Source of the DNA: Nitrospina watsonii
GTDB taxonomy: Bacteria; Nitrospinota; Nitrospinia; Nitrospinales; Nitrospinaceae
Assembly: GCF_946900835.1 (NCBI RefSeq)
Contig: NZ_OX336137.1
Location: 1,228,213-1,292,212, forward strand
Direction of reading: 5' to 3'
Length of the DNA: 64,000 nucleotides
The notes under the pieces were generated by a model. The model did not search any database, was not told the origin of the DNA, and was given only the letters and a program-made list of their open reading frames with translations. Position 1 is the stretch's first letter; every line of letters begins with the position of its first letter. The translations under genes were made by a program, and so were the position numbers. Shown here one piece after another: positions 8,298-62,717 of this stretch.

Positions 8298-8328
8298 ATG
8301 CTCACTCTCCCGTGTGGAAGCCGGGAAA

Positions 8329-8796
8329 TCAGAAGTTGCTGGTCCCGGAGGGTTGCCGGCCGGGAAAGATGTGGCCGAATGCTTCCTGCGTTTTTTGTTT
8401 CATGTAGCGGGCGTCCTGTTTCGACGTTTCGTGGTCGTAGCCCATCAGGTGCAGTATGCCGTGAATGAGGAGGAGGATCAACTCCTCTTGCAGGGACAGG
8501 TGATGGTCGGTGGCCTGCCGGAACGCGGTTTCGACGGAAATGACCACATCTCCGAGCAGCACTTGTCCCTTTTCATTGACGGCATCTTCATCCTGTGGAA
8601 ACGATAGCACATCGGTTGCCTGATCCTTGTCCCGGTACTGATGATTGAGGTTGCGGATGGCGGGGTCGTCGGTCAACAGAATACTGAGCTCGTCGTCGCC
8701 GATCTCCAGGTATTTCAGGATGCGGCTCGCCTCTTTCTTGAGCCAGCGCACATCGACTTTGTGCGCGGACTGGTTGTTGGTCACAAGAATGGGCAT
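8329..8796 (-). CDS. ybeY: rRNA maturation endoribonuclease YbeY
   Basis: 155 aa with HGILHLMGYDHE metal-binding motif. Confidence 0.9.
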   Translation of the reverse strand: MPILVTNNQSAHKVDVRWLKKEASRILKYLEIGDDELSILLTDDPAIRNLNHQYRDKDQATDVLSFPQDEDAVNEKGQVLLGDVVISVETAFRQATDHHLSLQEELILLLIHGILHLMGYDHETSKQDARYMKQKTQEAFGHIFPGRQPSGTSNF

Positions 8797-8882
8797 GGCG
8801 TGTTGAGCCTGAGTGTGTCCTGTGAATGCGCCGTGTGGGTGATCGGGAGATCGTCGCGCACAACCGCCGGCTCGGATGTCTG

Positions 8883-9863
8883 TTATGCAGAGGGAGGCGG
8901 TTCGCTTTGCTCTGCCCGGTCGTAGGCACCGATGATTTTTTTCACCAACTCGTGGCGGACGACGTCTTTTCGGTCGAATTCAATCAAGTCGATGCCGTGA
9001 ATGTCTCTCAATATTTCTCTGGCATGCAAAAGGCCGGACTGGGTGCCGCGCGGCAAGTCCACCTGCGTGATGTCGCCGGTGACGACCATCTTCGAGCGGA
9101 ATCCCAACCGGGTGAGGAACATTTTCATCTGTTCCCGGGTCGAGTTCTGCGCTTCGTCCAGGATGATGAATGAGTCGTTCAGCGTGCGCCCGCGCATGTA
9201 GGCCAGCGGCGCGATTTCTATATACCCCTCCGCAATCATCTGCTGCACCTGATTGAACTCCACCATTTCGTAAAGCGCGTCGTAGAGCGGCATCAGGTAC
9301 GGTTGAATTTTTTCGGCGATGTCACCGGGCAGGAAGCCCAGTTTTTCTCCGGCTTCGACGGCAGGACGGGTCAGAATGATGCGCTTGAACTGGCGTTTCA
9401 AAAAGCCTTCGACCGCCATGGCCACCGCAAGGTACGTTTTGCCGGTGCCTGCCGGACCGATGGCAAGCACGACGTCGTGTTTGCGGATGGCCTGGATCAT
9501 CTTGCGCTGGGTGTTGCCCTTGGGCGTGATGAATCCTTTCTTGGGCGATACGGGAATACGTTCGTCGAACAGCCCCTTGATATCCACTTTAGGGTCTTCG
9601 GCCACCAGCCGGATGGCGAACTTGATGTCGCCGTTGACCAGGCGCTGGCCGCTGGCCATCATGTCGTGCAGTTGCACGAGCAGATGCTCGACCGCTTCGA
9701 CATCGTTCGGCTCGCCACTGATACGAATTTGATTCTCGCGCGTGGTGATGCGGACGTTGAACTTTTTTTCGATTTGTTTGAGGTTGGTGTCCTGAGTGCC
9801 GAATATTTCAGGAATGTATTCCGTACTTTCGAGAAGCAAGTCCCTGGAAGTGGAGTGGTTCAA
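8883..9863 (-). CDS. ybeZ: PhoH-like ATPase (YbeZ)
   Basis: 326 aa with Walker A GPAGTGKTYLAVAMAV. Conserved phoH-ybeY synteny. Confidence 0.9.
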   Translation of the reverse strand: MNHSTSRDLLLESTEYIPEIFGTQDTNLKQIEKKFNVRITTRENQIRISGEPNDVEAVEHLLVQLHDMMASGQRLVNGDIKFAIRLVAEDPKVDIKGLFDERIPVSPKKGFITPKGNTQRKMIQAIRKHDVVLAIGPAGTGKTYLAVAMAVEGFLKRQFKRIILTRPAVEAGEKLGFLPGDIAEKIQPYLMPLYDALYEMVEFNQVQQMIAEGYIEIAPLAYMRGRTLNDSFIILDEAQNSTREQMKMFLTRLGFRSKMVVTGDITQVDLPRGTQSGLLHAREILRDIHGIDLIEFDRKDVVRHELVKKIIGAYDRAEQSEPPPSA

Positions 9864-9996
9864 GCAGGAGAAACCTTTATTGGGTTTGAATTCACGTTCA
9901 TTATAGGGTGATCGATTGCCAATGTCAAAGCATACCGGGCGCTGTAACCGGCTACATTAAAAAGACTTATGTAGGTTGCCGGAGGCCTTGGGGTGA

Positions 9997-10560
9997 TCAG
10001 GTGCGGTACCGCTGCCCGCCGTTGATCAGGCTTAAAAACTCGCTGCGGGTGCTGGGGTTGGACTTGAAATAACCCAGCATGGAGCTTGTGGTGGTGAAGG
10101 AATTCTGCTTCTCCACGCCGCGCATGGACATGCACAGGTGCAGGGCTTCGATGACCACGGCAACACCCTTGGGCTTCAATACCCGGTTGATGCAATCGGC
10201 GACCTGCATGGTCAACCGTTCCTGCACCTGGAGGCGGCGGCTGAAAGCATCGACCACGCGCGGGATCTTGCTGAGGCCGATGATCTTGCCGTCAGGCAGG
10301 TAGGCAACATGGCACTTGCCAAAAAACGGAAGCATGTGGTGCTCGCACAGGCTGAACATGTCGATATCCTTGACGATCACCATTTCGTCGGTGTTGGCAT
10401 CGGTGAACAGGGCATCGTTGACCAGTTCGTCGATGTTCACCCAGTAGCCGCCGGTCAGGAACTTGAGGGAGCGCGAAACCCGTTCGGGGGTATTCTTCAG
10501 GCCTTCGCGGGAAGGGTCTTCTCCCAACTCGAGCAGTATCTTCTCAATCAACTCTTTCAC
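9997..10560 (-). CDS. folE: GTP cyclohydrolase I
   Basis: 187 aa: [10 protein letters not shown]...CEHHMLPF...VIEALHLCM conserved FolE residues. Confidence 0.9.
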
Positions 10561-10969
10561 GGACGTGTCCTCTATAGGTTACGAAGTTGCGCGGAGATTC
10601 GTACAACTTGATTTCGTGAAGCAACCCGTCGCCGAGCTTCGGTTCCAGCACTTCCCAGAACTTGATGGCCAGATTTTCGGCAGTGGGGATGACCCCTTGC
10701 AAAAACCCGACGTCCACGTTGAGATTCTTATGATCGACCTTGTCGATGATCTCATCGGTGACCAGCTTCTTGAGGAACTTCAGATCGAGAACCATGCCGG
10801 TTTCCGGATCGACGTCCCCGCGCACGGTCACTTCCATGGTGTAGTTGTGACCGTGACCATTGGGATTATTGCAAAGGCCAAACACCTGGGCGTTTTTTTC
10901 GTCAGAAAAGGATGGGTTGTACAGCCGGTGACTGGCGCAAAATTCTACTTTTCGTGTTATATAAATCAT
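10544..10969 (-). CDS. queD: 6-pyruvoyl-tetrahydropterin synthase / 6-carboxytetrahydropterin synthase (QueD/PTPS family)
   Basis: Start taken at [16 protein letters not shown] (PTPS ExxxxHRL motif). Size is about 141 aa. Overlaps folE by 17 bp. The ORF extends upstream to 11014. Confidence 0.75.
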
Positions 10970-11044
10970 AGGTTTTCTTTCGTTCATGTTATTGAAGGGG
11001 GCCCACATTGTCAATGAAATTCAGGGTTTAAAGCCTTTGGAGAT

Positions 11045-12013
11045 GTGTTTATGAACCGCTTGTCCGGAAAAAAAGTCGTCGTCATCCGCACCGGAGCGCT
11101 GGGTGATGTGTTGATGATCCTGCCGTTTTTACAGGCGGTGCAATCGGTGCAACCGGAATGCCTCCATGTCGTGGTCGAAGCCCGGCAGAAAGAACTGATG
11201 CAGGGCTTCGATTGCGTTGATCGAGCCTTTGCCGCCGACGACCTCCAGTGGTGGTAGGTTTACGGCGACACGGCGGATGCGCCTCCCTACCGGTTTCTGC
11301 AAGATTACGACTGCGTGGTGGCTTTCATTCAGGACCACGGTGCTACCGTGGCCGACCGCATGCGGCAACGCCTGTCCGCCGAGGTGGTGGTGCGGCCACC
11401 GTTTCCATACCGGCGGGAATTGCATGTCAGCGACTATTACCTGCAAACCTTTGCGGAGCGTGTGCCGCAACCGGACTGGCCACCTGCCTGGCAGGCTCCA
11501 GCAACATCCTGCGCGGTGGCCGAACAGAAACTCCTGTCTGTCAAAAATGCTGTCAGGGGCTGCTGGGTGATGCACCCGGGCAGCGGGGGCGTTTCCAAAA
11601 ACTGGCCGTTGCCGGCGTTTCGTCAGCAAGCCGAGTGGCTGCGACAGCAGGGAGCCGCTCCCGTGTTTCTGCTCGGTCCGGCGGAAGTGACGATGGCCGA
11701 AGCCGTTCACGCGTTGGCTCGTGAACTGATGACTCCTGTATGGGACAATTTTCCCCTGACTGATTGCGCGGCCCTGCTCAGCCGGTGCGATGGGTTTCTG
11801 GGCAACGATGCCGGCATCGCCCACCTGGCTGCAGTGCTGGGCCTGCCGACCGTGGCGGTGTTCGTGAACAGCGATCCTGTGATGTGGCAGCCGCTGGGGT
11901 CCAACGTGAGCGTGGTCGATGTCCGGAAGGAAAAAGAGGTCGTCCCCCTGCCGGGATCGGAAGCCGTGCAGGAAGCCCTGAGCCGTTGGGTGCCGTTACG
12001 TTCCAACCCCTGA
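11045..12013 (+). pseudogene. Glycosyltransferase family 9 (heptosyltransferase-like) gene interrupted by an in-frame TAG at 11255-11257
   Basis: ORFs 11045-11257 and 11315-12013 are in the same frame (both start positions have the same remainder mod 3). The N-terminal part (VVVIRTGALGDVLMILPFLQAV) and the C-terminal part (GSGGVSKNWPL...GNDAGIAHLAAVLGLPTVAVF) together form a full-length GT9 fold of about 323 codons. Confidence 0.6.
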
Positions 12014-12021
12014 AAACCGGG

Positions 12022-12213
12022 TCATTTTAGATACTTGCGTTTGTTGTCGGTGGTGTAGAATCCCGTTCCGTACAGGTGGAAGGTGGAGCCGGTCACGCAT
12101 TTCTGCAGGGGGCCTCCACACTTCTCACATGTTTCGAGTGGCGGGTCATCTGTCCTCTGCAGGGCTTCGGTCCGGTCCTTACACTTTTCGCATTCGTATT
12201 CGTAAATCGGCAT
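12022..12213 (-). CDS. FmdB-family zinc-ribbon protein
   Basis: 63 aa, MPIYEYECEKC...CEKCGG. Matches the FmdB putative regulatory zinc-ribbon signature. Confidence 0.75.
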   Translation of the reverse strand: MPIYEYECEKCKDRTEALQRTDDPPLETCEKCGGPLQKCVTGSTFHLYGTGFYTTDNKRKYLK

Positions 12214-12276
12214 GATCGCGCCTCCTGCTCATCCGGTGAGCCTTGCACGCAGGGCCACCGGGGTGGATTCCAGATT

Positions 12277-12783
12277 TCATGGCCGGGGCCAGGAAATGGG
12301 TTTCTTCCCGGACTGTTCCCGGAAGATATCCAGCGTTTTCGGGATATTTTCTTTGACCTCATCAAGCCGGTACACTTTTTGGGGCAGGGTGAGGCCGAAT
12401 TCCTGTTCCCAGATACCTACCATTATACCGATCCGGTCGCTCAAAACCTGAAGAATTATAAACCGGTCGATTTCGAACTGTTTCTGAATGGACTCCGGCA
12501 TCATGAAGGTGCCATTCTGATTGACCTCGCCGAAACGCATCACCGCCAGGCCCTGGTGGACTTCCCTGAACCCGATCGAGGTGAAGAACTCTTCCATTTC
12601 GGGGGAGATGGCGCTTCGCGGCCAGACCACGATGCCGTATTTCTCCATATTCTGGTAAAGCGTGTAGGGGTGGGCATCCTGGGAAAAAGCCGGGGGCGTT
12701 GCAATGAGGGCCACCCAAAGGGCCCACATGGCTAGGATTCTCAACCACAACTTGTTGGACTGGAACCGGGGTTGATGCATCAT
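12277..12783 (-). CDS. Hypothetical secreted protein
   Basis: 168 aa with a hydrophobic signal-like N-terminus (WLRILAMWALWVALIATPPAFSQD). No recognisable domain. Confidence 0.45.
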   Translation of the reverse strand: MMHQPRFQSNKLWLRILAMWALWVALIATPPAFSQDAHPYTLYQNMEKYGIVVWPRSAISPEMEEFFTSIGFREVHQGLAVMRFGEVNQNGTFMMPESIQKQFEIDRFIILQVLSDRIGIMVGIWEQEFGLTLPQKVYRLDEVKENIPKTLDIFREQSGKKPISWPRP

Positions 12784-12805
12784 GATTCACCCCCTTTCAG
12801 GGCAA

Positions 12806-13225
12806 TCAGGGTTGGATTTCCGTCAGGCTGAAGAAATAGGACAATTCAAACGCCGCGTTTTCCGGAGAGTCCGAGCCATGCACCGAGTTCTTTTCGATAT
12901 CCACGGCAAAATCCTTACGGATAGTGCCCGCGGCGGCATCTTTGGGATTGGTGGCGCCCATCAGTTCCCGCCAGCTGGCAATGGCATTGCCCTTTTCCAG
13001 GGCCAGCAGCACGACCGGGCCGCCGGTGGCCATGTACGTGGTGAGGTCTTTGAAGAAAGGGCGTTCCTTGTGCACGTGGTAAAAGCCCTCGACCTGCTCC
13101 AGAGTCAATTTGGTGCGTTTCATGGCGACGATCCGGAATCCTTTGGATTCGATCCGCTCAAGAATTTTTCCAATCAGGTTGCGTTCTACAGCGTCGGGTT
13201 TGATGATAGCGAACGTTCTTTCCAT
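12806..13225 (-). CDS. ndk: Nucleoside diphosphate kinase
   Basis: 139 aa, AIIKPDAV...NSVHGSDS with active-site His. Confidence 0.95.
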
Positions 13226-13270
13226 TAGGCTTCAGGATCTCCAGCGTAAAATAAGTTGACGGTGAATGGG

Positions 13271-13306
13271 AAAAAAAAAGGTATTTGGGGAGAGCCCCAA
13301 ATACCT
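13271..13306 (-). terminator. Rho-independent terminator downstream of the OFOR operon
   Basis: Minus-strand reading AAGGTATTTGGGG-CTCT-CCCCAAATACCTT followed by a 9-nt T-run. Perfect 12-bp stem. Confidence 0.7.
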
Positions 13307-13347
13307 TTTCCTTCTAAAGCTTCAAACCAATATGGGCTGAAGGATGG

Positions 13348-13611
13348 TCAGCGCTGAACCACTCCCACCCGCTTGATCACGAAACGATCTTCCAGATTGT
13401 CGATCCACTTCATCTGGATAGCATCGTGTTTTGCAACGTCTCTGCAGATGTAAACGCAGATCTCGCAAGACTTGCAGCGATCCACCGAAACATAGGCGGA
13501 TTTATCTTCCTCGCTGTAGTTGATGCAGTTCGCCTCAGGACAATAAGTCGTGCACAAGTGGCAGTTGGTTTCAGCACAGATATCCTTGTTTACATCTGCA
13601 ACATAGTACAT
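13348..13611 (-). CDS. 2-oxoacid:ferredoxin oxidoreductase delta subunit (2x[4Fe-4S] ferredoxin)
   Basis: 87 aa with two Cys clusters (CxxCxxxCP and CxxCxxC-like). Confidence 0.8.
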   Translation of the reverse strand: MYYVADVNKDICAETNCHLCTTYCPEANCINYSEEDKSAYVSVDRCKSCEICVYICRDVAKHDAIQMKWIDNLEDRFVIKRVGVVQR

Positions 13612-13641
13612 GCTTGATTACACTCCAATTCAAAAGTTGCG

Positions 13642-14352
13642 TTAAACAGCAACCGGTTTCTCTTTATCGGCATGGACACCCCATTTGTGATCTATCGCGT
13701 ACTGATAGGCGGCTTTGATGGTGTCCATATTTGCCTGAAGCAACTTCTGCTTTTTGGCAAATTTCTTTTCGATGACGCTATCCAAAGAGGCGGTACCACC
13801 GGAGGTAACAATACCCTTGCCGATGAAACGATCCTTGACGGATCCCTCGATGGATTCCATGTCCGGCATGCCAAAGATGGCGGAGATGGCACCGCACATG
13901 GCCATGTTGGTGGCCAGGTCGGTTCCCGCGACATCATTTGCAAGCTCGGTAGCGGGCAGATAATAGATATTCGCTTTCTTATCCACCAGCTCCTTCTCTT
14001 CATCGGGGATGAGCTTCAACGGTTCCCGGTTGTTGATCAGGATGATGCCGTTTTCCTTGAGGCCCGTATAGAAAGGCATGGTGTACGACTTGCCCAGGGT
14101 GATGACCTGTGCACTGAAAATCATCAACACATTGGGGAAGACGATCTCGCCGATTTCATAAATTTCATCGTTGGAGATCCGCACGTAACTTTCAACCGGG
14201 GCGTTGCGTTTTTCGGAACCGAAAAAGGGGACGAGGGAACTGAACCCGTTTCCGATGACGACCGCGTTACTCAGAATGTGAGAGGCGGTGACAACGCCCT
14301 GGCCGCCAATGCCGGCCATGCGAACGTTATAACGTTTGACTTCTTCTACCAT
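13642..14352 (-). CDS. 2-oxoacid:ferredoxin oxidoreductase gamma subunit
   Basis: Start chosen at MVEEVKRYNVRMAGIGGQGVVTA, the typical gamma-subunit GxGGQG motif. The ORF extends upstream to 14442 into the beta subunit. Confidence 0.8.
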   Translation of the reverse strand: MVEEVKRYNVRMAGIGGQGVVTASHILSNAVVIGNGFSSLVPFFGSEKRNAPVESYVRISNDEIYEIGEIVFPNVLMIFSAQVITLGKSYTMPFYTGLKENGIILINNREPLKLIPDEEKELVDKKANIYYLPATELANDVAGTDLATNMAMCGAISAIFGMPDMESIEGSVKDRFIGKGIVTSGGTASLDSVIEKKFAKKQKLLQANMDTIKAAYQYAIDHKWGVHADKEKPVAV

Positions 14353-14371
14353 GGGTTTAAAACCTCCTCGT

Positions 14372-15250
14372 TTATTTTTTAGCAGCTTTGGCTTTTTCTT
14401 TGTCTTTCTTTTCGAGGTCGGTGATGTACGCCTTGGCTTCATCCGTCATTTCTTCGAGAAAACCGTAACGTTCTTTTTCGACGTCGAAGGCATCCTGCAT
14501 GACTTCCGGGGTCGGAATTGCATACTCAATGTTGCAGGAGGTGTACGCCTGAATGAAAGTCGGACCGACTTCACGCGCGATGAGAATGGCGCGACGAACG
14601 GTGCGGACGACACGTGCCGGGTTGGTCGGCGCGATCCGGGCGATGTAGGCACAACCCGCTACCCGGGCGAGGCCCAGAGCATCGATCTTGTCCGTAGCTT
14701 TACCACGCGGAGCCATTTTCAAGACCTGGCCCTTCATGGTCATACCACTTTCCTGACCGCCGGTGTTGCCGTAAACTTCGTTGTCCAGCATGATGGTCGT
14801 GAACCGCTCCTGGCGGAACCAGGAATGCATCAGTGCCTGAAAGCCGATGTCGATCAATCCGCCGTCACCGGCCTGAACGATAACGTCCTTGGGCTGGTTC
14901 GGGAAACGAATTTCCAGACCGCGTTTGAGGCCGGAAGCCACGGAGTTGGTGTCGCCGTAGTTGCCGTAGATGAAGGGGATGTTGGCCTGGGAAATCGCCA
15001 GACGTCCACACCCTGCGGTACCAACATTGATGGTGTGTTCCGGAGCGGGCAGAGCCAGCATCGTCAGGCGGATGAACAGCGTCATCGCGCAGCCTGCGCA
15101 CATCGGATGCTCTTCCAGAAGCTCCTTGAATTTCCCCATTTCGCTGACTTTTACTTCACGACCATACTGACCGTACTTAACCAGGTCGCGATATTCTACC
15201 GGGAGAATTTCCTCATAACCAGGGGCTGGTTTGACGGTTTCGAGAGACAT
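14372..15250 (-). CDS. 2-oxoacid:ferredoxin oxidoreductase beta subunit (TPP-binding)
   Basis: 292 aa, GDGG TPP motif (QAGDGGLIDIG) and Cys ligands near the N-terminus. Confidence 0.9.
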   Translation of the reverse strand: MSLETVKPAPGYEEILPVEYRDLVKYGQYGREVKVSEMGKFKELLEEHPMCAGCAMTLFIRLTMLALPAPEHTINVGTAGCGRLAISQANIPFIYGNYGDTNSVASGLKRGLEIRFPNQPKDVIVQAGDGGLIDIGFQALMHSWFRQERFTTIMLDNEVYGNTGGQESGMTMKGQVLKMAPRGKATDKIDALGLARVAGCAYIARIAPTNPARVVRTVRRAILIAREVGPTFIQAYTSCNIEYAIPTPEVMQDAFDVEKERYGFLEEMTDEAKAYITDLEKKDKEKAKAAKK

Positions 15251-17585: not shown

Positions 17586-17876
17586 TTGATTATGGAACCG
17601 ATTGAACTGAACGACCCGGCAGAGATTCAACAGTTTTTGAGCAAGATCCGGCTTTCCGGCAAAGGCTTCACCTCCGACGCCCTACTGGGCGACGTGTTTG
17701 ATGCCGGGTTGGATTACCCCGATTTTTTGAAGGCGGAAGGGGAGGACCCGGACGCCAGTTACGACGGCAAATCCCCGGCCTGGGCGAAATATCATGTCCG
17801 CCAGGGAAAACGGGTGTTCATGGTGTACGGTGCCAAAGGGCGGGACCGCCGCTCACACTTTTCAGAAACACCTTGA
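17586..17876 (+). CDS. Hypothetical protein
   Basis: 96-aa ORF with no recognisable domain. Confidence 0.35.
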   Translation: MIMEPIELNDPAEIQQFLSKIRLSGKGFTSDALLGDVFDAGLDYPDFLKAEGEDPDASYDGKSPAWAKYHVRQGKRVFMVYGAKGRDRRSHFSETP

Positions 17877-17949
17877 AACTCACCTTCTATTATTTAAATA
17901 TTTAAAGCCGTCGTCTTCGTACGATACGGACGCTGTTGGGAGAGCGATC

Positions 17950-18399
17950 ATGAAATTCGATAAAGAAACGCAGGAACGCGTTCTTCGCGTTGCGGCCGAC
18001 CGCAACCAGGGCAAGGATTTTGAGGAACTGGATGAGTGCATCGCCCGCATCATGGACATGCACCCGGAGTTCGATCAGGCCTGGGAGATGGGAGAGATGG
18101 CCGTGTACCCGCAGGAAATCGAGGGCAAGGTGGTCAACCCCTTTGTCCATACGGTTCTGCATGTCATCGTGGACCAGCAAATCCAGGACGAGGCGCCGGA
18201 TTTCGTGACCACGTCTTATAAAGAGATGGTCGATATGGGCATGGACAACCACGAGATCCTGCACAACCTGATCTCAGTTTATGCCGACCTGTACTTCACC
18301 AACTTCCGCCGCGGCGACAACTTCAGCAACCTGGATTACCAGGAACGTTTGAAGCAGTTGGTGCGGCAGGCGCGTGCCCAGATGGACGAGGGAGAATAG
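17950..18399 (+). CDS. DUF1841-like protein
   Basis: Start at MKFDKETQ (the ORF extends to 17794). HPEF..W and NPFVH..LH motifs are reminiscent of DUF1841. Confidence 0.5.
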   Translation: MKFDKETQERVLRVAADRNQGKDFEELDECIARIMDMHPEFDQAWEMGEMAVYPQEIEGKVVNPFVHTVLHVIVDQQIQDEAPDFVTTSYKEMVDMGMDNHEILHNLISVYADLYFTNFRRGDNFSNLDYQERLKQLVRQARAQMDEGE

Positions 18400-18409
18400 C
18401 TCTTCCTCA

Positions 18410-18613
18410 CTACTCCGCCTGACCGGGCTTCAACGGTTCGTGGCAGACTTCGCAGTGATCCAGTTGGTAGTCGTTGGGATGCTGGCAGTTGGGACAGTCC
18501 AGCGTTTTATTCTCGGCTTGGGGAGGATCGAACGGCGTCAGGCACTTTTCGCACCACGCGGTTTTGTTTGGATTGGGTGCCCCGCAATGGGGACAGATCG
18601 ATGTGTGGCTCAT
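18410..18613 (-). CDS. Double zinc-ribbon protein
   Basis: CPHCG...CEKC...CPNC...CEVC, four CxxC pairs. Start taken at MSHTSICPHCG, because the longer ORF start lies inside a terminator hairpin. Confidence 0.5.
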   Translation of the reverse strand: MSHTSICPHCGAPNPNKTAWCEKCLTPFDPPQAENKTLDCPNCQHPNDYQLDHCEVCHEPLKPGQAE

Positions 18614-18614
18614 A

Positions 18615-18655
18615 CCCCTTGGGATGCAGAACATCCCAAGGGGTTTTGTTTTTTT
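18615..18655 (+). terminator. Intrinsic terminator-like hairpin (plus-strand orientation)
   Basis: CCCCTTGGGATG-CAGAA-CATCCCAAGGGG followed by TTTTGTTTTTTT on the plus strand. The minus-strand reading has no U-tract. Confidence 0.45.
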
Positions 18656-18688
18656 AACGGATTCCCGGAAAAATCGGGGGGAGGGCGC

Positions 18689-19558
18689 TTACAGGCACTT
18701 GGCGAGGGTCTTGCCGATGTCGGCCGGACTCTTCACCACTTTGATGCCGCACTTCTTCATGACCTTCATCTTGCCTTCCGCCGTACCCTGGCCACCGGAA
18801 ATGATGGCGCCTGCGTGGCCCATGCGGCGGCCCGGAGGCGCAGTCTGCCCGGCGATGAACCCGACCACCGGTTTGGTGACGTGTTTCTTGATATAGTACG
18901 CCGCTTCGTCTTCCGCCGACCCGCCGATCTCGCCGATCATGCAGATGGCCTTGGTGGCGCGGTCCTTCTGGAACAGCTTGAGGGTGTCGATGTAGCGGGT
19001 GCCGATGATGGGATCGCCGCCGATGCCGACGCAGGTGGACTGGCCGATGCCCATGGCCGTCAACTGACCGACGGCCTCGTAGGTCAAGGTGCCGCTGCGG
19101 GAAATGATGCCGACGTTGCCCTTTTTGTGGATGTGTGCGGGCATGATGCCGATCTTGCATTTGCCGGGAGAGATGACGCCGGGGCAGTTGGGCCCGACCA
19201 GACGCGAATCGGAATCCTGGATGTACCGGTACACTTCCACCATGTCATACACCGGAATGCCTTCCGAGATGCAGATGATCAATTCGACACCCGCATCCGC
19301 CGCTTCGAGAATGGCGTCCGCGGCGAACGCCGGCGGCACGAAGATCATCGAGGCGTTGGCCTTGGTTTTGGCGACGGCGTCTTTGACCGAATTGAAAACA
19401 GGAACGGTGTCCAGCACCTTCTGTCCGCCTTTACCCGGAGTCACACCCGCCACCAGCTGGGTGCCGTACTTCATGCACTGCTCGGCGTGAAACATGCCTT
19501 CGCGACCGGTGATGCCCTGAACCAGCAATTTTGTGTTTTCATCTACGAGAATGCTCAT
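18689..19558 (-). CDS. sucD: Succinyl-CoA synthetase alpha subunit
   Basis: 289 aa, CoA-binding GITGREG and phosphohistidine region MGHAGAI. Confidence 0.95.
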
Positions 19559-20715
19559 TGGATTGCCTGTACGACCTTTTTCGCGGCATCTTTCATACCA
19601 TTGCCGACGATGAAGTTGATTTCGGATTCTTCAAGAATGCGGTGGCCTTCTTCCATGTTGGTGCCTTCCATGCGGATGACAACCGGAATAGTCACACTCA
19701 ATTTTTTCGCCGCCGCGACCACGCCTTTGGCGAGGATGTCGCAGCGCAGAATGCCACCGAATATATTAATGAAAATGGCTTTTACTTTGTTGTCAGAGAG
19801 GAGAATGCGGAATGCGTTTTCGATCATCTCCTCGTTGGCGCCGCCGCCGACATCCAGAAAGTTGGCGGGCTCGCCTCCACTGTGCTTGACGATATCCATC
19901 GTCGCCATCGCCAGTCCGGCGCCGTTCACCATGCAGCCGATGTTGCCATCGAGCTGAATGTAGTTGAGGTGGAACTTGGAGGCTTCGATCTCGTTGGGGT
20001 CTTCCTCGTCGAGGTCGCGCATCTCCTGTATGTCGGGATGCCGGCCCAGCGCGTTGTCGTCCACATCGATCTTGGCGTCGAGCGCCAAAAGACGGTTGTC
20101 GCCGGTGACCACCAGCGGGTTGATCTCCAGCATCGACAGGTCTTCCTTCACGAAGCACTGATACAGATTGATGATGAAGGGAATGGCCTGCTTGAAGACG
20201 TCGCCTTCCAGGTTCAGGGCGAACGCCAGTTTGCGTGCGAGATAGGGTTTGACGCCGATGACGGGATCGACGCGTTCGGTGATGATTTTTTCCGGCGTGG
20301 CTTCGGCCACTTCCTCGATTTCCATGCCACCGGCCTCACTGGCCATGATCATGACCTGGCTGGTCTCGCGGTCGAGGATGAGGCTCAGATACAATTCGCG
20401 GACGATGTCCATCCCCTCTTCGATCAGAACCTTTTTCACCAGCCGTCCTTCCGGGCCGGTCTGGTGCGTGACCAACTGCATACCGATGATATCTCCGGCG
20501 TGCTTCTCGGCTTCCTCCGGGCTTTTGGCCAGTTTCACGCCGCCACCCTTGCCACGGCCGCCGGCATGGATCTGCGCCTTGACCACAACGGGGGTGGTGC
20601 CGATCTTCTTCGCGGCGGCTGCCGCTTCGGATTTGTCGTGAACCAGGATGCCGTTGGGTACCGGGACCTTGTATTTTTTGAAGAGCTGTTTGCCCTGATA
20701 TTCGTGAATTTTCAT
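19555..20715 (-). CDS. sucC: Succinyl-CoA synthetase beta subunit
   Basis: 386 aa, ATP-grasp N-terminus [12 protein letters not shown]. Overlaps sucD by 4 bp. Confidence 0.95.
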
Positions 20716-20942
20716 GGTTCGAATTGAAAGAATTTAATAGGTAACCAAATGTGGGAGATGCTTTGTACCACAGGTTTTAACAGGTTGTCAAAAAAATAAG
20801 AGGGAAAGGAATGGGGGGCATAAAACGGCGGACGTGGGGTGCCGGGAAACACAGGCCCGTACGGGCGGGCGATTTTTGCACGGTAAGCGGTTGTGAAGAA
20901 AAAATGGGGAGGGCGGCGCGCTGGTTTTTATTTTTTAATGAG

Positions 20943-21374
20943 TCAACACCGGGCCACGAAGCCGGAGTTCGGGCTGGAGTGGGTACTGGATTCGGCTTCT
21001 TCCGCGGCGTTGAAGATCTGGTCCCAGGCTTCGCGCAGCGGTGTCATCACACGCAGGACCGCCTGCAGGGAGGCCTTGTCGTTTTTGATGTTGGCCAGGG
21101 TCAACTGGCGCAGCACAAACTGGTACAGCCGTTCCAGATTGCGGCACACCTCACCGCCCTTGTCGGTGTCGAGCGCCACCATCAACTCGTTGACGATGTC
21201 CCGCGACTTCTGGATGTACACACTCTTGTGAGCGACATCGTTCTGGTCCAGAGAATCCATCGCCATGGTGACAAACCGGATGGCTCCATCGTACATCATG
21301 AGAATCAGCTTGCCCTGGTTGGAGGTCGAGACCTCATTGATCCGGTATTCCTTGTGTCCCTGTGTCTGTCCCAT
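20943..21374 (-). CDS. fliS: Flagellar export chaperone FliS
   Basis: 143 aa with LILMMYDGAIRFV, a typical FliS helix. Confidence 0.85.
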   Translation of the reverse strand: MGQTQGHKEYRINEVSTSNQGKLILMMYDGAIRFVTMAMDSLDQNDVAHKSVYIQKSRDIVNELMVALDTDKGGEVCRNLERLYQFVLRQLTLANIKNDKASLQAVLRVMTPLREAWDQIFNAAEEAESSTHSSPNSGFVARC

Positions 21375-21419
21375 ATGTGCGCTCTCCTGTGAGTCTTCCG
21401 TGTGGCCGTGTTCGCAGAT

Positions 21420-32532: not shown

Positions 32533-33414
32533 ATGTCGGACTCGCAGACACAGACTGCCGGAGGGACGGCGTTTTCAAGAAGCGTGCGGATGTTTGCCGT
32601 AACGCTGTTGCTGGCAGGCCTGCAGGCGGTGCTAGCGTCCGCCGCGCTGGCATCGGCAGCGCCGCTTGATATCCACACCACACCTGTGGTGGGAAAAGAC
32701 GGACGCGTGCGCATCACCCTTCACTTGGAGAACACCGGCTCCCGATCGCTGCACCACGTGCACCCGATGTTTCATTTTCATCACACCATGTCGCACATGC
32801 CGATGATCCACGAACTGAAGCCGGGGCAGTCGGTGACCCTGGTCAACGACCAGCATCCGCCGGTGGTGCGGGTCGGCAGTTACCCCCTCGTCGCCATGGT
32901 CAATTATAAGAACGACGCCGACAGCGACGCCACCCGCACACAGTTGCACACCAGTTCGTTCCATTATGAAGAACCCCTCCGGGCGGTCATCGACGGTGAC
33001 ATCGAGGCCCGGCACCGGGAGAATACGGACACCTCGACCCTGCGCATCGCCATCCGCAACAATTCCACGTCCTTCAAGAACGTGCGATTGATGCTGCTGT
33101 TGCCGCCGGAATTGACGGCGCGCAGTTTTCAGGGAATGCGCGGCTTCACCATCCACGGCGGACAGGAAAAACAGTTTGAAGTGCCGGTGCAGAAGGTGGT
33201 GGGGCGTCCCGGTGGCGAGTACCCGGTGCACCTTCTGGTCGAATACGGAGAAATGCTGAAACATTATTCCAGCGACATCACCGGCAGTGTGTACTTCGGG
33301 CCGGACTGGGGGCAGGAGCCGTTCTGGCCGCAACTGGTGGTCTTCCTGTTTCTCTTTCTCACTCTGACAACCCTCCTGCTGCGCCGCTGGCGCCACCGCC
33401 GCCGCAAAGTTTAA
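32533..33414 (+). CDS. Membrane-anchored secreted protein with His/Met-rich motif
   Basis: Signal-like N-terminus (alternative start MFAVTLLL at 32590), HHVHPMFHFHHTMSHMPMIHE, C-terminal TM plus RRWRHRRRK anchor. Confidence 0.5.
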   Translation: MSDSQTQTAGGTAFSRSVRMFAVTLLLAGLQAVLASAALASAAPLDIHTTPVVGKDGRVRITLHLENTGSRSLHHVHPMFHFHHTMSHMPMIHELKPGQSVTLVNDQHPPVVRVGSYPLVAMVNYKNDADSDATRTQLHTSSFHYEEPLRAVIDGDIEARHRENTDTSTLRIAIRNNSTSFKNVRLMLLLPPELTARSFQGMRGFTIHGGQEKQFEVPVQKVVGRPGGEYPVHLLVEYGEMLKHYSSDITGSVYFGPDWGQEPFWPQLVVFLFLFLTLTTLLLRRWRHRRRKV

Positions 33415-33562: not shown

Positions 33563-34507
33563 ATGCAGGGGGAATCGACCGTCAATTGGGAACGCGTGCG
33601 GCTGGGCAAAAGCCGCAATTCGGTGAGCGGCACCACCCTTCACGGCTGGCCGTCCATCCTCTTCGGCCTGCCGTTCGCCGGGGTTGGCGTGATGTTGTTT
33701 TTGGTGTCGCAGGGCGTCATCGGCGTGGATCCGAAAAGCGTGCACGCACCGATGTGGATGATCGGTTTGATCGCCGGATTGTTCTTCCTGGCCGGGGCTT
33801 ACATGATGGTGCACGGCGTCATCGGGCTCGGCTTGAAAAAGAAGGTGGAGGAGGGCCGCCGCCGTTCGTTGCACCAGCCCTGGCTGTGGGATTACGTCTG
33901 GGACCCGCTCGGCGTCTCCGAAAACAAACTGAAAGAAGTGATGAAGCATTTTGCGGCGGCGCTCACCTTCATCGCCTTCCTTGCGCCGTTTCATTACATG
34001 GTCTGGTTCAGCGAAGAAAAGAGCGTGCCGACGTGGGTGAAGTTCGTGGTGATCTTTTTCGATTTCATCGTCGTCCTGATCATCGGCGACGGCATCCGCA
34101 AATACATGCAGTTCCTCAAATACGGCAACAGCCGCCTGCGCTTTCTGGGGTTTCCGTTTCACCTGGGGGAGAAGATGAAGCTGGCGCTGGAAGGCATGCC
34201 CGCCGCGTTCGATTCGGTCACGCTGAACCTGCGTTACATTGAGGAAGTGTATGAGACGCGGTACTCCGGACGGAGGCGCACGCGCGAAGTGGTGTGTTAC
34301 CAGATCTACGGTGAAGAACGGACGATGAACTCCGGCGCTTCCCGCAGCGGCGGGTTCTTGATGGAATGGGACCTGCCGGACAATAAGGAGATGACCACGG
34401 AGTTGAGCGGGCGGCCGGGACGGTTCTGGGAAATCGAGATCAAGGCCGAAACGCCCGGAGTCGATTACGACAGCCGCTTCCTCGTTCCCGTTTACGCGAA
34501 ACCCTGA
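33563..34507 (+). CDS. Integral membrane protein (about 4 TM) with C-terminal soluble domain
   Basis: 314 aa, no recognisable family. Confidence 0.55.
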   Translation: MQGESTVNWERVRLGKSRNSVSGTTLHGWPSILFGLPFAGVGVMLFLVSQGVIGVDPKSVHAPMWMIGLIAGLFFLAGAYMMVHGVIGLGLKKKVEEGRRRSLHQPWLWDYVWDPLGVSENKLKEVMKHFAAALTFIAFLAPFHYMVWFSEEKSVPTWVKFVVIFFDFIVVLIIGDGIRKYMQFLKYGNSRLRFLGFPFHLGEKMKLALEGMPAAFDSVTLNLRYIEEVYETRYSGRRRTREVVCYQIYGEERTMNSGASRSGGFLMEWDLPDNKEMTTELSGRPGRFWEIEIKAETPGVDYDSRFLVPVYAKP

Positions 34508-37081: not shown

Positions 37082-38473
37082 TCACCCCACGATGTTGTAA
37101 CGGCGCGGCCGGTACGTGACGCCGAACTGCTGCTCGGCGATCTCCGCGCATTTGTCTTCGTCCACGTCCTGCTGGTGGGTCACGATGGTGGCCTGCACCT
37201 CCGGGATGTGAACTTTGGCATCTTCAATGAATTTCAGAATCTCGTCGTAGATGCGACCGCGGTAATTCGGCAATGGCTGGCTGACTTCATCGTAGGCGTC
37301 GGAGTTGTCGGCGTTGAGGCTGATCGATACGGAATCGACGAGGCCTGCGAGCTCCGGCAGAATATTGCGTTTGTTGATGACGTTGCCGTGGCCGTTGGTA
37401 TTGAGCCGCACGCGTCCGCCCGCGGCCTTGATTTTTTGCGCCACGTTTTTGATGACGTCGAGACGCAGCGTCGGTTCGCCGTAGCCGCAGAACACGACCT
37501 CGTCGTACTTCGCCGGGTCGTCGATCGACGCCCACACCTCGTCGGCGGTGGGTTCGCGGTCCAGCGCCAGGTTGTAACCCTGCACGATGGGTTTCGAGAT
37601 ACGCGTGCAGAACACGCAATTGGCGGTGCAGCGTTGCGTCAGGTTCAGATAGAGCGAGTTCCTTATCTGGTACGAAATGGTGCCGGACTGCGCGGTGTTG
37701 CCGATGCCGTACAAATCGAAAAAGCTGAGCTCCACCGTGCGGTGCAGGTCCTGCACGCTGGTGCCGCGCAATTCGGCCAGAAACTCCGCCGTGTGGTTGA
37801 CGAACGCCGGTTCGTTGCGTTTGCCGCGCATGGGTACCGGCGCCATGTAGGGGCAATCGGTTTCGACGAACAGACGATCCGCTGGAATGGTTTTGGCGAC
37901 GGCGCGCAGGTCCTCCGCATTTTTGAAAGTCACCACGCCGGAAAAGGAAATGTAAAAGCCCATAGCCAGCGCCGCTTCCGCCATTTCCTGGTCGCCGGTG
38001 AAGCAGTGGAAAATGCCGGCGCGTCCGTTCGGGTCTTGCGGATAGTACTCGGACAGGATGGCGAGGGTGTCTTCCTTGGCGTCGCGGCTGTGGATGACCA
38101 GCGGTTTTTTGTGCTCGCGCGCCAGTTCGATGTGCTTGCGGAAATGCGCGCGTTGCAGGTCGTGCGGCGAATAGTTTTTAAAGTAGTCGAGGCCGGTCTC
38201 GCCGACGGCGATCACGCGTGGGTGTTGCAAGAGTTCGCGCAGCTCGAGATAGGTGTTGTCGTCGATGTCCTTGACGTCGTGCGGATGGATGCCGACGGCG
38301 GCGTAAATGAAGTCGTGCTCTTCCGTCAGCGCCACCGAACGGTGACTGCTCGGGATGTCGCAGCCGATGTTGACGATGTATTTGACGCCGTGGTCGCGGG
38401 CGCGCTGGATGATGGCGTCGCGGTCGGCGTCGAAATCGGCCATGTCAATGTGTGCGTGGGTGTCGATGATCAT
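37082..38473 (-). CDS. TatD-family metal-dependent hydrolase fused to a radical SAM domain (TIGR04038-like TatD-associated rSAM)
   Basis: N-terminal IIDTHAHID...HCFTG (TatD). C-terminal CTANCVFC (CxxxCxxC) plus TNGHG. Confidence 0.8.
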   Translation of the reverse strand: MIIDTHAHIDMADFDADRDAIIQRARDHGVKYIVNIGCDIPSSHRSVALTEEHDFIYAAVGIHPHDVKDIDDNTYLELRELLQHPRVIAVGETGLDYFKNYSPHDLQRAHFRKHIELAREHKKPLVIHSRDAKEDTLAILSEYYPQDPNGRAGIFHCFTGDQEMAEAALAMGFYISFSGVVTFKNAEDLRAVAKTIPADRLFVETDCPYMAPVPMRGKRNEPAFVNHTAEFLAELRGTSVQDLHRTVELSFFDLYGIGNTAQSGTISYQIRNSLYLNLTQRCTANCVFCTRISKPIVQGYNLALDREPTADEVWASIDDPAKYDEVVFCGYGEPTLRLDVIKNVAQKIKAAGGRVRLNTNGHGNVINKRNILPELAGLVDSVSISLNADNSDAYDEVSQPLPNYRGRIYDEILKFIEDAKVHIPEVQATIVTHQQDVDEDKCAEIAEQQFGVTYRPRRYNIVG

Positions 38474-40404
38474 TTCACGCGCGCTCCCAGTTCCAATTCT
38501 TCGTCGAATCCGGCGAGGACGACCTTGCCCTGATCGCTGCCCGCCAGGATCATGCCCTGCGATTCAATGCCCATCAGTTTCGCCGGTTTGAGGTTGGCGA
38601 CGAGGATCACCTTGCGCCCGACCAGCTGCTCCGGTTCGTAACTTTCGGCGATGCCCGCCACCACCTGCCGCTGTTCGTGGCCGAGATCGACCTTCAGCTT
38701 GATGAGTTTTTTTGATTTCTTCACCTTCTCCGCTTCGAGGATGAGGGCGACGCGCAGATCGAGCCTCATGAAATCGTCGATCTGGATGAGGTTGTCTTCC
38801 TCTACCGCGGCGGCGCCGTCGTCGCCGGAGGCCTTCACTTCCACAGTGGCCAGGATTTTTTCAGCGGCCTTGTCCTCGATGCGCGGGAAAATCTGCTCGC
38901 CCTGTTTCGACTGCGCACTGGCGGACAGCCAGCCCCAGGTGCGGATGGAAGGCAGACCCTGATCCTCGATCGGGGTTTCGACGCCGAGTTGCTGCATCAT
39001 CTTCTTCGACGTATCCGGCATGAACGGGTGGATGAGAATGGCGATGACACGGCAGGCCTCGGCGGCGTTGTAGAGCACGGTGGCGAGGCGTTTTTTGCCG
39101 TCGTCGGATTTGGCCAGGTTCCACGGCGCGGTGCTGTTGATGTATTGATTGGACGCGTCGAGCAGTTCCCAGATTTTCATCAGGATGCGGTTGTAGGCCA
39201 ACTCGTCGTACAACTCGTTGACCTGTTCGACCACTTCCTTGGACTTGCCCTTGAGGCCTGCGTCCTCGTCGCCTTCGACATCTATTTCCGGCACGCGGCC
39301 TTCAAAGTATTTGCCCAGCATGTTGAGCGTGCGGTTGAGCAGATTGCCCAGGTTGTTGGCGAGGTCGCTGTTGACGCGACCGATCAACGCCTTGTGCGAG
39401 AAATCGCCGTCGAGCCCGAACGGCACCTCGCGCATCAGGAAATAGCGGATGACGTCCACGCCGAACTGGTCGATCAACAGGTTCGGCTCGACCACGTTGC
39501 GCAGCGACTTCGACATCTTCTTGCCTTCCACCGTCCACCAGCCGTGCGCGAAAATATTGAGAGGCGGCGAGATGCCGATGGCCTTCAGCATGGTGGACCA
39601 GTACACCGCGTGCGTGGTCAAAATGTCCTTGCCGATGAGGTGATGCGCCGCCGGCCAGTAATCGCATTTTAAAATCTCGTCGTGGCTGCCGTGGATCGAG
39701 ATGTAGTTGATGAGCGCGTCGAACCAGACGTAGGTGACGTAATCCTCATCGAAGGGCAGGGGGATGCCCCAGGCGAGGCGTTCCTTGGGCCGCGAGATGC
39801 AGAGGTCTTCCAGTGGTTTTTTCAGGAAGCCCAGGATTTCGTTCTTCCGCGACGCGGGCAGGATGAACGATTCGTTTTTCTGGATGTGATCGATCAGCCA
39901 CTCCTGATACTGGCTCATCTTGAAAAAATAATTGTACTCTTTGATCTTTTCCACCTTGCGCCCACACTCCGGGCAGTTGCCCTCGACGAGGTCCTTCTCC
40001 GTCCAGAAACGTTCGTCGGGCATGCAGTACCAGCCTTCGTAACTGTCGCGGTAGATTTCGCCTTTCTCGTGGAGCGCCTGGAGGATTTCGCGGACCACCC
40101 GGGTGTGGCGTTCCTCCGTGGTGCGGATGAAATCGGTATTGGAAATGTTGAAGCGCGCCCACAGGTCCTTGAACGGTTTGTGCAGGGCATCGACGTACGC
40201 CTGGGCGCTGCGTCCGGCTTGCTCCGCCGCCTGCTGGACTTTCTGCCCGTGCTCGTCGGTGCCGGTCAGAAAAAACACGTCGTCGCCATCGAGCCTGCGG
40301 TAGCGGGCGGCGACGTCGGCGGCGATGGTGGTGTAGGCGTGGCCGATGTGGGGCACGTCGTTGACGTAATAAATGGGTGTGGTGATGTAGAACTTTCGAT
40401 TCAT
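38470..40404 (-). CDS. metG: Methionyl-tRNA synthetase with C-terminal tRNA-binding domain
   Basis: 644 aa, HIGH (PHIGHAYT), KMSKS, and a zinc knuckle CPECGRK. Confidence 0.95.
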   Translation of the reverse strand: MNRKFYITTPIYYVNDVPHIGHAYTTIAADVAARYRRLDGDDVFFLTGTDEHGQKVQQAAEQAGRSAQAYVDALHKPFKDLWARFNISNTDFIRTTEERHTRVVREILQALHEKGEIYRDSYEGWYCMPDERFWTEKDLVEGNCPECGRKVEKIKEYNYFFKMSQYQEWLIDHIQKNESFILPASRKNEILGFLKKPLEDLCISRPKERLAWGIPLPFDEDYVTYVWFDALINYISIHGSHDEILKCDYWPAAHHLIGKDILTTHAVYWSTMLKAIGISPPLNIFAHGWWTVEGKKMSKSLRNVVEPNLLIDQFGVDVIRYFLMREVPFGLDGDFSHKALIGRVNSDLANNLGNLLNRTLNMLGKYFEGRVPEIDVEGDEDAGLKGKSKEVVEQVNELYDELAYNRILMKIWELLDASNQYINSTAPWNLAKSDDGKKRLATVLYNAAEACRVIAILIHPFMPDTSKKMMQQLGVETPIEDQGLPSIRTWGWLSASAQSKQGEQIFPRIEDKAAEKILATVEVKASGDDGAAAVEEDNLIQIDDFMRLDLRVALILEAEKVKKSKKLIKLKVDLGHEQRQVVAGIAESYEPEQLVGRKVILVANLKPAKLMGIESQGMILAGSDQGKVVLAGFDEELELGARVK

Positions 40405-62638: not shown

Positions 62639-62717
62639 GACGTTGTTTATGTGTTCAATGGGTAGGTGATCGATTGTTGGGTGGCTCGTCCACCCTTTTT
62701 TATATTCCAAAAGCGCT

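What the first reader, a model, noticed from the sequence alone, without database searches (positions are those of the whole stretch)
11045..12013. GT9 heptosyltransferase-like gene split by a single in-frame amber codon
ORFs 11045-11257 and 11315-12013 are in the same frame and together encode a full-length GT9 protein of about 323 aa. The only interruption is TAG at 11255-11257 (…DDLQWW*VYGD…). This could be a recent pseudogenisation, a sequencing error, or programmed readthrough. No other gene in the window needs TAG as a sense codon.
Basis: seen in the sequence. Interest (0 to 1): 0.5.

Follow-up and report, generated by a model that had tools for sequence, protein, structure and literature searches.

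The report
Amber-mutated GT9 glycosyltransferase pseudogene, Nitrospina watsonii
A sugar-transferase gene of the marine nitrite oxidiser Nitrospina watsonii strain 347 carries one real, recent C-to-T mutation that turned a glutamine codon into a stop codon, which makes it an ordinary young pseudogene and not a case of genetic recoding.

Summary
TAG at 11255-11257 is the only interruption of a 320-codon GT9 (heptosyltransferase-family) reading frame. The true start is ATG 11051, not 11045. The window is Nitrospina watsonii 347, where the two pieces are annotated as separate genes of 68 aa and 231 aa. Every relative examined has one uninterrupted gene of 318-320 aa in the same gene neighbourhood. 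Five more distant Nitrospina sequences have CGG (Arg) at the site. A 96.9%-identical contig has CAG (Gln), so TAG is one C>T transition from CAG. An Illumina-only assembly of the strain's reads reproduces the TAG, so it is not a Nanopore or assembly error. TAG ends other genuine genes in the window. The genome paper assigns all 45 tRNAs to the 20 standard amino acids. There is no RNA structure after the TAG, and no Shine-Dalgarno sequence at the first restart codons. The stop separates the catalytic-base Asp19 from the donor-binding Lys183 and Asp253. All family-invariant residues are retained and dN/dS is 0.15, so the lesion is recent. The strain has been cultured since 1969. Verdict: an ordinary nonsense pseudogene, or at most a leaky hypomorph. 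Low interest.

The parts
11051..12013 (+). Complete GT9 glycosyltransferase reading frame (320 codons including the amber codon), now a nonsense-mutated gene
   Evidence: Translation. Pfam PF01075. Full-length alignment to orthologues of 318-320 aa. 97.0% nucleotide identity to the intact allele in L001.
11255..11257 (+). Premature amber codon TAG (codon 69), derived from CAG (Gln) by a C>T change at 11255; the deeper ancestral codon is CGG (Arg)
   Evidence: Codon comparison: window TAG, L001 CAG, and CGG in L083, L084, L085, L086 and L087. Reproduced in the Illumina-only assembly L002.
11051..11257 (+). N-terminal fragment (68 aa plus stop), annotated as WP_282010936.1 / CAI2718025.1. It carries beta1-alpha-beta2-alpha-beta3 of the N-terminal Rossmann-like domain and the GALGD motif with the catalytic-base Asp19
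   Evidence: Exact look-up. AF2 model of orthologue P0002. HepI D13 equivalence. SD-like GGAG upstream, dG -6.4.
11258..11314 (+). 19 codons (residues 70-88) left without an in-frame start codon. They still match the orthologues, with only 3 synonymous and 0 nonsynonymous differences from L001
11315..12013 (+). C-terminal ORF (232 aa from GTG 11315; annotated as 231 aa from GTG 11318, WP_282010937.1, or 221 aa, CAI2718026.1). It holds the rest of the N-domain and the whole nucleotide-sugar-binding C-domain, with Lys183 and Asp253. The first start codons have no Shine-Dalgarno sequence
   Evidence: SD energies of -0.5 kcal/mol at 11315 and 11318.

Best explanation
This is a real, evolutionarily recent nonsense mutation in the genome of Nitrospina watsonii strain 347. 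A C>T transition at 11255 changed CAG (Gln69) to TAG. It truncates a conserved, single-copy-in-locus GT9 (GT-B fold, ADP-heptose-type) glycosyltransferase after 68 residues. Translation ends inside the N-terminal acceptor-binding domain. The 68-aa product carries the catalytic-base Asp19 but lacks the donor site. The downstream 232-codon ORF carries the donor-binding Lys183 and Asp253 but has no ribosome-binding site and lacks residues 1-88. The gene is therefore most likely non-functional, a young pseudogene. At most, rare near-cognate readthrough would give a trace of full-length protein. Shown here: the stop is present in the DNA, the ancestral codon states, the intact state in all relatives, the normal use of TAG as a stop, and the absence of restart or readthrough signals. 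Inferred: loss of enzymatic function, and the timing. The mutation arose either in the wild lineage or during the more than 50 years of laboratory culture since 1969.
For: (1) TAG is the only disruption of a 320-codon frame. (2) The window is N. watsonii 347: exact matches to CAI2718025/26 and WP_282010936/37 on the 3,011,914-bp genome. (3) Five relatives have an uninterrupted gene of 318-320 aa in identical synteny, queD-folE upstream and Zn-ribbon-ndk-POR downstream. (4) Codon at the site: CAG in the 96.9%-identical L001, and CGG in L083, L084 (N. gracilis 3/211), L085, L086 and L087. This gives the path CGG>CAG>TAG, with a single C>T as the last step. (5) The Illumina-only Logan assembly of ERR10676991 is 100% identical to the window over 6,699 bp, TAG included. 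The genome paper identifies that run as the MiSeq reads used in a hybrid Unicycler assembly at 54x coverage. (6) All 31 columns that are invariant in alignment A1 are retained in the window protein. dN/dS against L001 is 0.147, not different from the neighbours' 0.078 (Fisher p=0.31). Residues 70-88 show 3 synonymous and 0 nonsynonymous differences. All of this points to a recent lesion. (7) TAG ends genuine genes with complete Pfam domains: a BirA-like ligase, a DUF1841 protein and a ferredoxin. [quoted passage not shown] (9) The 101 nt around and after the TAG fold no better than shuffles (z +0.71). (10) The first in-frame restart codons have SD dG -0.5, against -6.4 at the native start. (11) In the AF2 model of orthologue P0002 (pLDDT 93.9), residue 69 lies in a short helix after beta3 of the N-domain. 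Foldseek's top hits are GT9 structures: 3TOV, HepII 1PSW and WaaC 2H1F/2GT1/6DFE. HepI D13, K192 and D261 are catalytic or binding residues (PMC5713226). They map to the invariant D19, K183 and D253.
Against: No read-level data could be inspected. A minority wild-type allele in the culture, or an error shared by both assemblies of the same Illumina library, cannot be formally excluded. Loss of function is inferred, not measured. Basal readthrough of UAG, or re-initiation at GTG 11348 or 11390 (SD-like dG -5.4 and -7.2), could give some product. The excess of nonsynonymous changes on the N. watsonii branch (6-7, against 1 on the L001 branch) hints that constraint may have relaxed earlier than 'very recent', but it is not significant (p=0.07-0.3).
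Confidence: 0.87

Rival explanations
1. Sequencing or assembly artefact: the true genome has CAG, or another sense codon, and the TAG is a consensus error.
For: The reference is a Nanopore-first (canu/racon) hybrid assembly, and such assemblies can retain errors. Only one strain and one Illumina library support the TAG.
Against: The change is a substitution outside any homopolymer (GGTGGTAGGTT). Unicycler hybrid assembly uses the Illumina reads. An independent Illumina-only Logan assembly of ERR10676991 gives the identical sequence over 6.7 kb.
Confidence: 0.03
2. Programmed recoding: the UAG is decoded as a sense codon, by a suppressor tRNA, pyrrolysine or stimulated readthrough, so that full-length GT9 is made on purpose.
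For: The frame is perfectly open and conserved on both sides of the TAG. From my own knowledge, not tested here: in suppressor-free E. coli, near-cognate readthrough of UAG inserts mainly Gln, which would restore exactly the Q69 protein of the closest relative.
Against: The TAG is not conserved: the closest relative has CAG and all others have CGG. TAG ends at least three genuine genes in the window. The paper reports 45 tRNAs, all for the 20 standard amino acids, and there is no tRNA in the window. There is no stable structure downstream. The +4 base is G (TAGG), which from my own knowledge is not a notably leaky context in E. coli. No other gene in the window is bridged by a TAG.
Confidence: 0.03
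3. Functional split gene: the 68-aa N-fragment and a re-initiated C-fragment are both made and reassemble into an active two-chain GT-B enzyme.
For: NCBI and ENA annotate two separate CDSs. Two-chain GT-B enzymes exist (Alg13/Alg14, from my own knowledge). Weak SD-like sequences precede GTG 11348 and GTG 11390.
Against: The break lies inside the N-terminal Rossmann-like domain, after beta3, and not at the inter-domain linker. At least residues 69-88, including a helix and the start of beta4, would be missing from both chains. The first restart codons have no SD. No relative shows such a split. In the 15-billion-protein collection the 68-aa product is on record from a single contig, that of this strain's genome.
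Confidence: 0.05

Closest known systems
Ordinary bacterial nonsense-mutation pseudogenes in surface-polysaccharide genes of long-cultured strains (for example the rfb-50 wbbL::IS5 lesion of E. coli K-12, cited from my own knowledge)
   Same: A single lesion inactivates an envelope glycosyltransferase in a strain kept in the laboratory for decades. The gene is intact in close relatives, and the rest of the reading frame is still undecayed.
   Different: The lesion here is a point nonsense mutation, not an IS insertion. Nothing shows that it arose in culture rather than in the wild ancestor. The phenotype is unknown.
GT9 ADP-heptose:LPS heptosyltransferases (E. coli WaaC/HepI, WaaF/HepII; V. parvula GT9, PDB 3TOV)
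   Same: Pfam PF01075 hit. GT-B fold with the top Foldseek hits 3TOV, 1PSW and 2H1F/2GT1/6DFE. The equivalents of HepI D13, K192 and D261 are conserved.
   Different: Only 16-20% identity to the solved enzymes. Scores are far below the NCBIfam equivalog cut-offs for HepI, HepII and HepIII: 72 against 185, 51 against 135, 37 against 170 bits. The gene stands alone between queD/folE and a Zn-ribbon/ndk/POR cluster, not in an LPS-core operon. The acceptor substrate is unknown.
Natural amber suppression and pyrrolysine decoding of UAG
   Same: An in-frame UAG inside an otherwise intact, conserved ORF.
   Different: The UAG is not conserved among orthologues. No suppressor or Pyl tRNA is reported, and TAG is used as an ordinary terminator.

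Membership tests
Glycosyltransferase family 9 (Pfam PF01075; GT-B fold) | Significant match to the PF01075 profile above the gathering score | tested here: met
   75.4 bits against a cut-off of 22, E 5.7e-21, residues 157-293 of the joined protein.
Glycosyltransferase family 9 (Pfam PF01075; GT-B fold) | Two Rossmann-like domains (GT-B) that superpose on solved GT9 enzymes | tested here: met
   AF2 model of the intact orthologue P0002 (69% identical to the window protein): pLDDT 93.9, pTM 0.92. Foldseek top hits are 3TOV (TM 0.77), 1PSW (0.76) and WaaC (0.69-0.70), all with probability 1.00. The test was run on the orthologue, not on the interrupted window protein itself.
Glycosyltransferase family 9 (Pfam PF01075; GT-B fold) | Conserved catalytic and binding residues equivalent to HepI D13, K192 and D261 | tested here: met
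   D19, K183 and D253 are invariant in A1 and A2 (as D19, K182 and D252 in P0002 numbering) and are present in the window sequence. The register with WaaC 2GT1 (179-287 against 188-295) places K183 at K192 and D253 at D261. The roles of the residues come from PMC5713226.
LPS heptosyltransferase I / II / III (WaaC / WaaF / WaaQ equivalogs) | Score above the NCBIfam equivalog cut-off (TIGR02193, TIGR02195, TIGR02201) | tested here: not met
   72.1 against 185.3, 51.4 against 134.6, and 36.6 against 170.2 bits for the intact allele P0123; similar for N. gracilis P0004. I therefore file it only as a generic GT9 protein.
LPS heptosyltransferase I / II / III (WaaC / WaaF / WaaQ equivalogs) | ADP-L-glycero-D-manno-heptose donor and an LPS inner-core acceptor | not testable with these tools
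   This needs biochemistry. The genomic context is not an LPS-core cluster.
Pseudogene by nonsense mutation | A premature stop inside a frame that is uninterrupted in orthologues, derived by an identifiable mutation | tested here: met
   TAG against CAG in L001 and CGG in five others, with full-length orthologues in conserved synteny.
Pseudogene by nonsense mutation | Loss of the functional product | not testable with these tools
   Inferred from the position of the stop in the fold, the separation of catalytic residues and the lack of an SD for restart. No expression or activity data.
Programmed UAG recoding (suppressor tRNA / Pyl / stimulated readthrough) | Conservation of the in-frame UAG among orthologues | tested here: not met
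   None of seven orthologous sequences has TAG at the site.
Programmed UAG recoding (suppressor tRNA / Pyl / stimulated readthrough) | Presence of a tRNA with a CUA anticodon or of the Pyl machinery | tested here: inconclusive
   No tRNA in the 64-kb window. The genome paper reports 45 tRNAs, all for the 20 standard amino acids. The whole genome could not be scanned here.

The most novel reading that the evidence does not exclude
The amber codon may not be a dead end but a leaky attenuator. Near-cognate tRNA-Gln readthrough of UAG would regenerate exactly the Q69 protein of the closest wild relative. Strain 347 would then keep a low, possibly condition-dependent level of this envelope glycosyltransferase, and selection would maintain the rest of the frame. 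A milder version is that the mutation is a laboratory-domestication allele, selected during more than 50 years of batch culture because it changes the cell surface.
Probability: 0.05. Interest if true: 0.35.

Novelty: new member of a known kind. Interest (0 to 1): 0.1.

Why it matters
The main value is for annotation and strain biology. The two CDSs in the N. watsonii 347 record (WP_282010936.1, 68 aa, and WP_282010937.1, 231 aa) should be merged and flagged as one pseudogene. The type strain of one of the few cultured Nitrospina species probably lacks an envelope glycosyltransferase that every other examined Nitrospina retains. This may matter for anyone comparing cell-surface, aggregation or phage-sensitivity phenotypes between N. 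watsonii and N. gracilis. It has no bearing on the genetic code.

Tried and rejected
It returned no Nitrospina locus, so I fetched orthologous DNA by exact protein look-up instead. (2) A metagenome contigs pattern scan around the site gave only one true orthologue, L087 with CGG, and two chance matches, L088 and L089. It gave no population-level view of the TAG allele. (3) I tested for GT9-specific relaxed selection. The branch-polarised counts (window 6 synonymous / 7 nonsynonymous, L001 8 / 1) looked suggestive. They are not significant against the L001 branch (p=0.07) or against the neighbours' window-branch counts of 12 nonsynonymous / 28 synonymous (p=0.18-0.30), so I make no claim of prolonged decay. 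(4) I looked for a readthrough-stimulating RNA structure and for any Rfam family in the window and found none. (5) Promoter and terminator scans around the gene showed nothing relevant on the + strand. (6) A scan for other TAG-bridged ORF pairs gave only antisense-frame artefacts besides GT9. (7) Literature searches for the sample SRR29340338 and for Nitrospina heptosyltransferases found nothing useful, so the source of the intact conspecific allele remains unknown. I rely only on its D261 region, and the residue mapping rests on the PDB alignment.

Full report
**Observation.** The window has TAG at 11255-11257, in frame between a short ORF (11045/11051-11257) and a longer one (11315-12013). 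Continuous translation of 11045-12013 gives ...DDLQWW*VYGD... with no other stop until TGA at 12011-12013. The joined protein matches Pfam PF01075 (Glyco_transf_9) at 75 bits over residues 157-293. The 68-aa N-terminal piece alone matches nothing. The start is ATG 11051 (MNRLSGKK...), as in all orthologues, with a GGAG upstream (SD duplex -6.4 kcal/mol). The gene therefore has 320 codons, not 323.

**Identity of the sequence.** Exact look-ups place both pieces on the 3,011,914-bp genome of Nitrospina watsonii. The 68-aa piece is CAI2718025.1 / WP_282010936.1. The C-terminal piece is annotated as 221 aa (CAI2718026.1) or 231 aa (WP_282010937.1), so the public records hold two separate CDSs. The genome announcement (PMC10112255) gives the relevant history:
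- Strain 347 derives from a Black Sea enrichment started in 1969.
- The assembly is a canu/racon/Unicycler hybrid at 54x coverage.
- ERR10676991 is the MiSeq read set.
[quoted passage not shown] **Is the stop real?** An independent Logan assembly made from ERR10676991 alone yields an 81.8-kb contig. The 6,699 bp of it fetched here (L002) are 100% identical to window 8315-15013, TAG included, and the gene is called in the same two pieces. The change is a substitution in a non-homopolymeric context. A Nanopore or assembly artefact is therefore very unlikely. Only an error systematic to that one Illumina library, or culture heterogeneity, remains untested.

**What orthologues show.**
- A homology search returned full-length proteins of 318-320 aa at 61-69% identity, among them N. 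gracilis 3/211 NITGR_910016.
- In the alignment, all five close orthologues and a 37%-identical Nitrospinaceae protein have Arg at the stop position (WWRVYGD).
- The 90%-identity cluster of the C-terminal piece also holds a 320-aa protein, P0123, from Logan sample SRR29340338, with Gln at the site (WWQVYGD).
- Its contig (L001) is 96.9% identical to the window over 7.1 kb, which is conspecific-level. The other Nitrospina loci are 82-83% identical.
- At the DNA level the site reads TAG in the window, CAG in L001, and CGG in L083, L084 (N. gracilis), L085, L086 and the metagenome contig L087. The history is CGG (Arg), then CAG (Gln), then TAG, and the last step is a single C>T transition at 11255.
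- In all five loci with flanks the gene is uninterrupted and sits in the same neighbourhood: mutS-HIT-ybeY-phoH-folE-queD, then GT9, then Zn-ribbon, a 168-aa hypothetical, ndk, an 87-aa ferredoxin-like protein and POR gamma/beta/alpha on the opposite strand.

**Age of the lesion.**
- The window gene differs from L001 at 29 sites: 19 synonymous, 9 nonsynonymous and the stop.
- Nei-Gojobori dN/dS is 0.147, against 0.078 pooled for eight neighbouring genes (Fisher p=0.31).
- The 19 codons now stranded between the TAG and the first downstream start show 3 synonymous and 0 nonsynonymous differences.
- All 31 columns that are invariant in alignment A1 are retained in the window sequence.
- Polarising with four outgroups puts 6 synonymous and 7 nonsynonymous changes on the N. 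watsonii branch, including G98A, P109S and R281Q at otherwise conserved sites. The L001 branch has 8 synonymous and 1 nonsynonymous.
- This asymmetry is suggestive but not significant (p=0.07). It also does not differ from the neighbours' window-branch counts of 12 nonsynonymous and 28 synonymous (p=0.18-0.30).
- The gene was therefore under purifying selection for most or all of the time since the two lineages split, so the stop is young. Whether it arose in the sea or during more than 50 years of culture cannot be decided from these data.

**Recoding and restart.**
- TAG is an ordinary terminator in this genome. Within the window it ends a BirA-type biotin ligase (61799-62743, minus strand; BPL_C domain complete), a DUF1841 protein (17794-18399; profile matched to position 134 of 135) and a ferredoxin (42664-42990).
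- A scan for other TAGs bridging coding-like ORFs found only antisense-frame artefacts.
- The window has no tRNA gene and no Rfam family hit.
- The 101 nt around and after the TAG fold no better than shuffled sequence (z +0.71).
- The +4 base is G.
- The first in-frame start codons after the stop, GTG 11315 and 11318 (residues 89 and 90), have essentially no SD complementarity (-0.5 kcal/mol). Weak SD-like matches occur only further in, at GTG 11348 (-5.4) and GTG 11390 (-7.2).

**Consequence for the protein.**
- An AlphaFold2 model of the intact orthologue P0002 (65-sequence alignment; pLDDT 93.9, pTM 0.92) has the two Rossmann-like domains of the GT-B fold.
- Foldseek's best PDB matches are the GT9 structures 3TOV, E. 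coli HepII (1PSW) and E. coli WaaC/HepI (2H1F, 2H1H, 2GT1, 6DFE), with TM 0.69-0.77.
- Residue 69 lies in a short helix (67-71) right after beta3 of the N-terminal domain. Truncation leaves only beta1-alpha-beta2-alpha-beta3.
- In HepI, D13 is the proposed catalytic base, and the D13A, K192A and D261A mutations reduce activity about 900- to 4,700-fold (PMC5713226).
- The equivalents here are the invariant D19, K183 and D253.
- The stop therefore separates the catalytic base, on the 68-aa fragment, from the donor-site residues, on the downstream ORF. At least residues 69-88 would be missing from both chains. Neither piece should be active alone, and reassembly of the two is unlikely. This step is inference.

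**Family placement.** The protein is a GT9 member by profile, fold and catalytic residues. It scores far below the NCBIfam equivalog cut-offs for heptosyltransferases I, II and III. It is also not in an LPS-core operon. Its donor and acceptor should be regarded as unknown.

**Verdict.** This is an ordinary, real, young nonsense mutation (CAG>TAG) in a lab-maintained type strain. It is worth a correction to the annotation (one pseudogene instead of two CDSs) and a note for anyone studying the N. watsonii envelope. It is not evidence of recoding. Interest is low.

Noticed in passing
window 37082-38473 (-): A 463-aa ORF combines a complete TatD_DNase domain (residues 3-255, E 5e-88) with a Radical_SAM domain (277-440, E 2e-15). 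It lies directly downstream of metG (38470-40404, minus strand). This looks like an uncommon domain fusion.
   Followed up: no
window 11255-11257 and orthologues (L001, L083-L087): The Arg at position 69 is conserved in all other Nitrospina orthologues. It had already been replaced by Gln (CGG>CAG) in the N. watsonii-like lineage before the nonsense mutation, so the site needed two successive transitions to become a stop.
   Followed up: yes
window 10544-11014 (-) (queD / PTPS): The longest ORF, from TTG, is 156 aa. Logan aa for this strain (L002), while the relatives are called at 141 aa, which corresponds to a start at window 10969. The SD there is weak (-1.2 kcal/mol), so the start-codon assignment of queD is uncertain. 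queD also overlaps folE by 17 bp.
   Followed up: partly
window 18374-19957 (+), 20811-21392 (+), 32533-33414 (+), 33563-34507 (+), 12277-12783 (-): Five sizeable ORFs of 168-527 aa have no Pfam match. The 168-aa one is conserved in synteny across all Nitrospina loci examined.
   Followed up: no
Foldseek hits to the P0002 model: After the bacterial GT9 enzymes, the next-best structural matches are subunits of plant chloroplast NDH-PSI supercomplexes (9grx_1, 7f9o_6, 7wff_a; TM 0.65-0.68). These are GT9-like folds used as structural subunits.
   Followed up: no
window 12806-13225 (-) (ndk): All four polarised nonsynonymous differences between strain 347 and the conspecific contig L001 in ndk fall on the strain-347 branch, with none on the L001 branch. 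The numbers are too small to interpret.
   Followed up: partly
NCBI/ENA records WP_282010936.1, WP_282010937.1, CAI2718025.1, CAI2718026.1: The public annotations treat the two halves as independent protein-coding genes, with three different start choices for the C-terminal piece (221, 231 and 232 aa), rather than as one pseudogene.
   Followed up: yes
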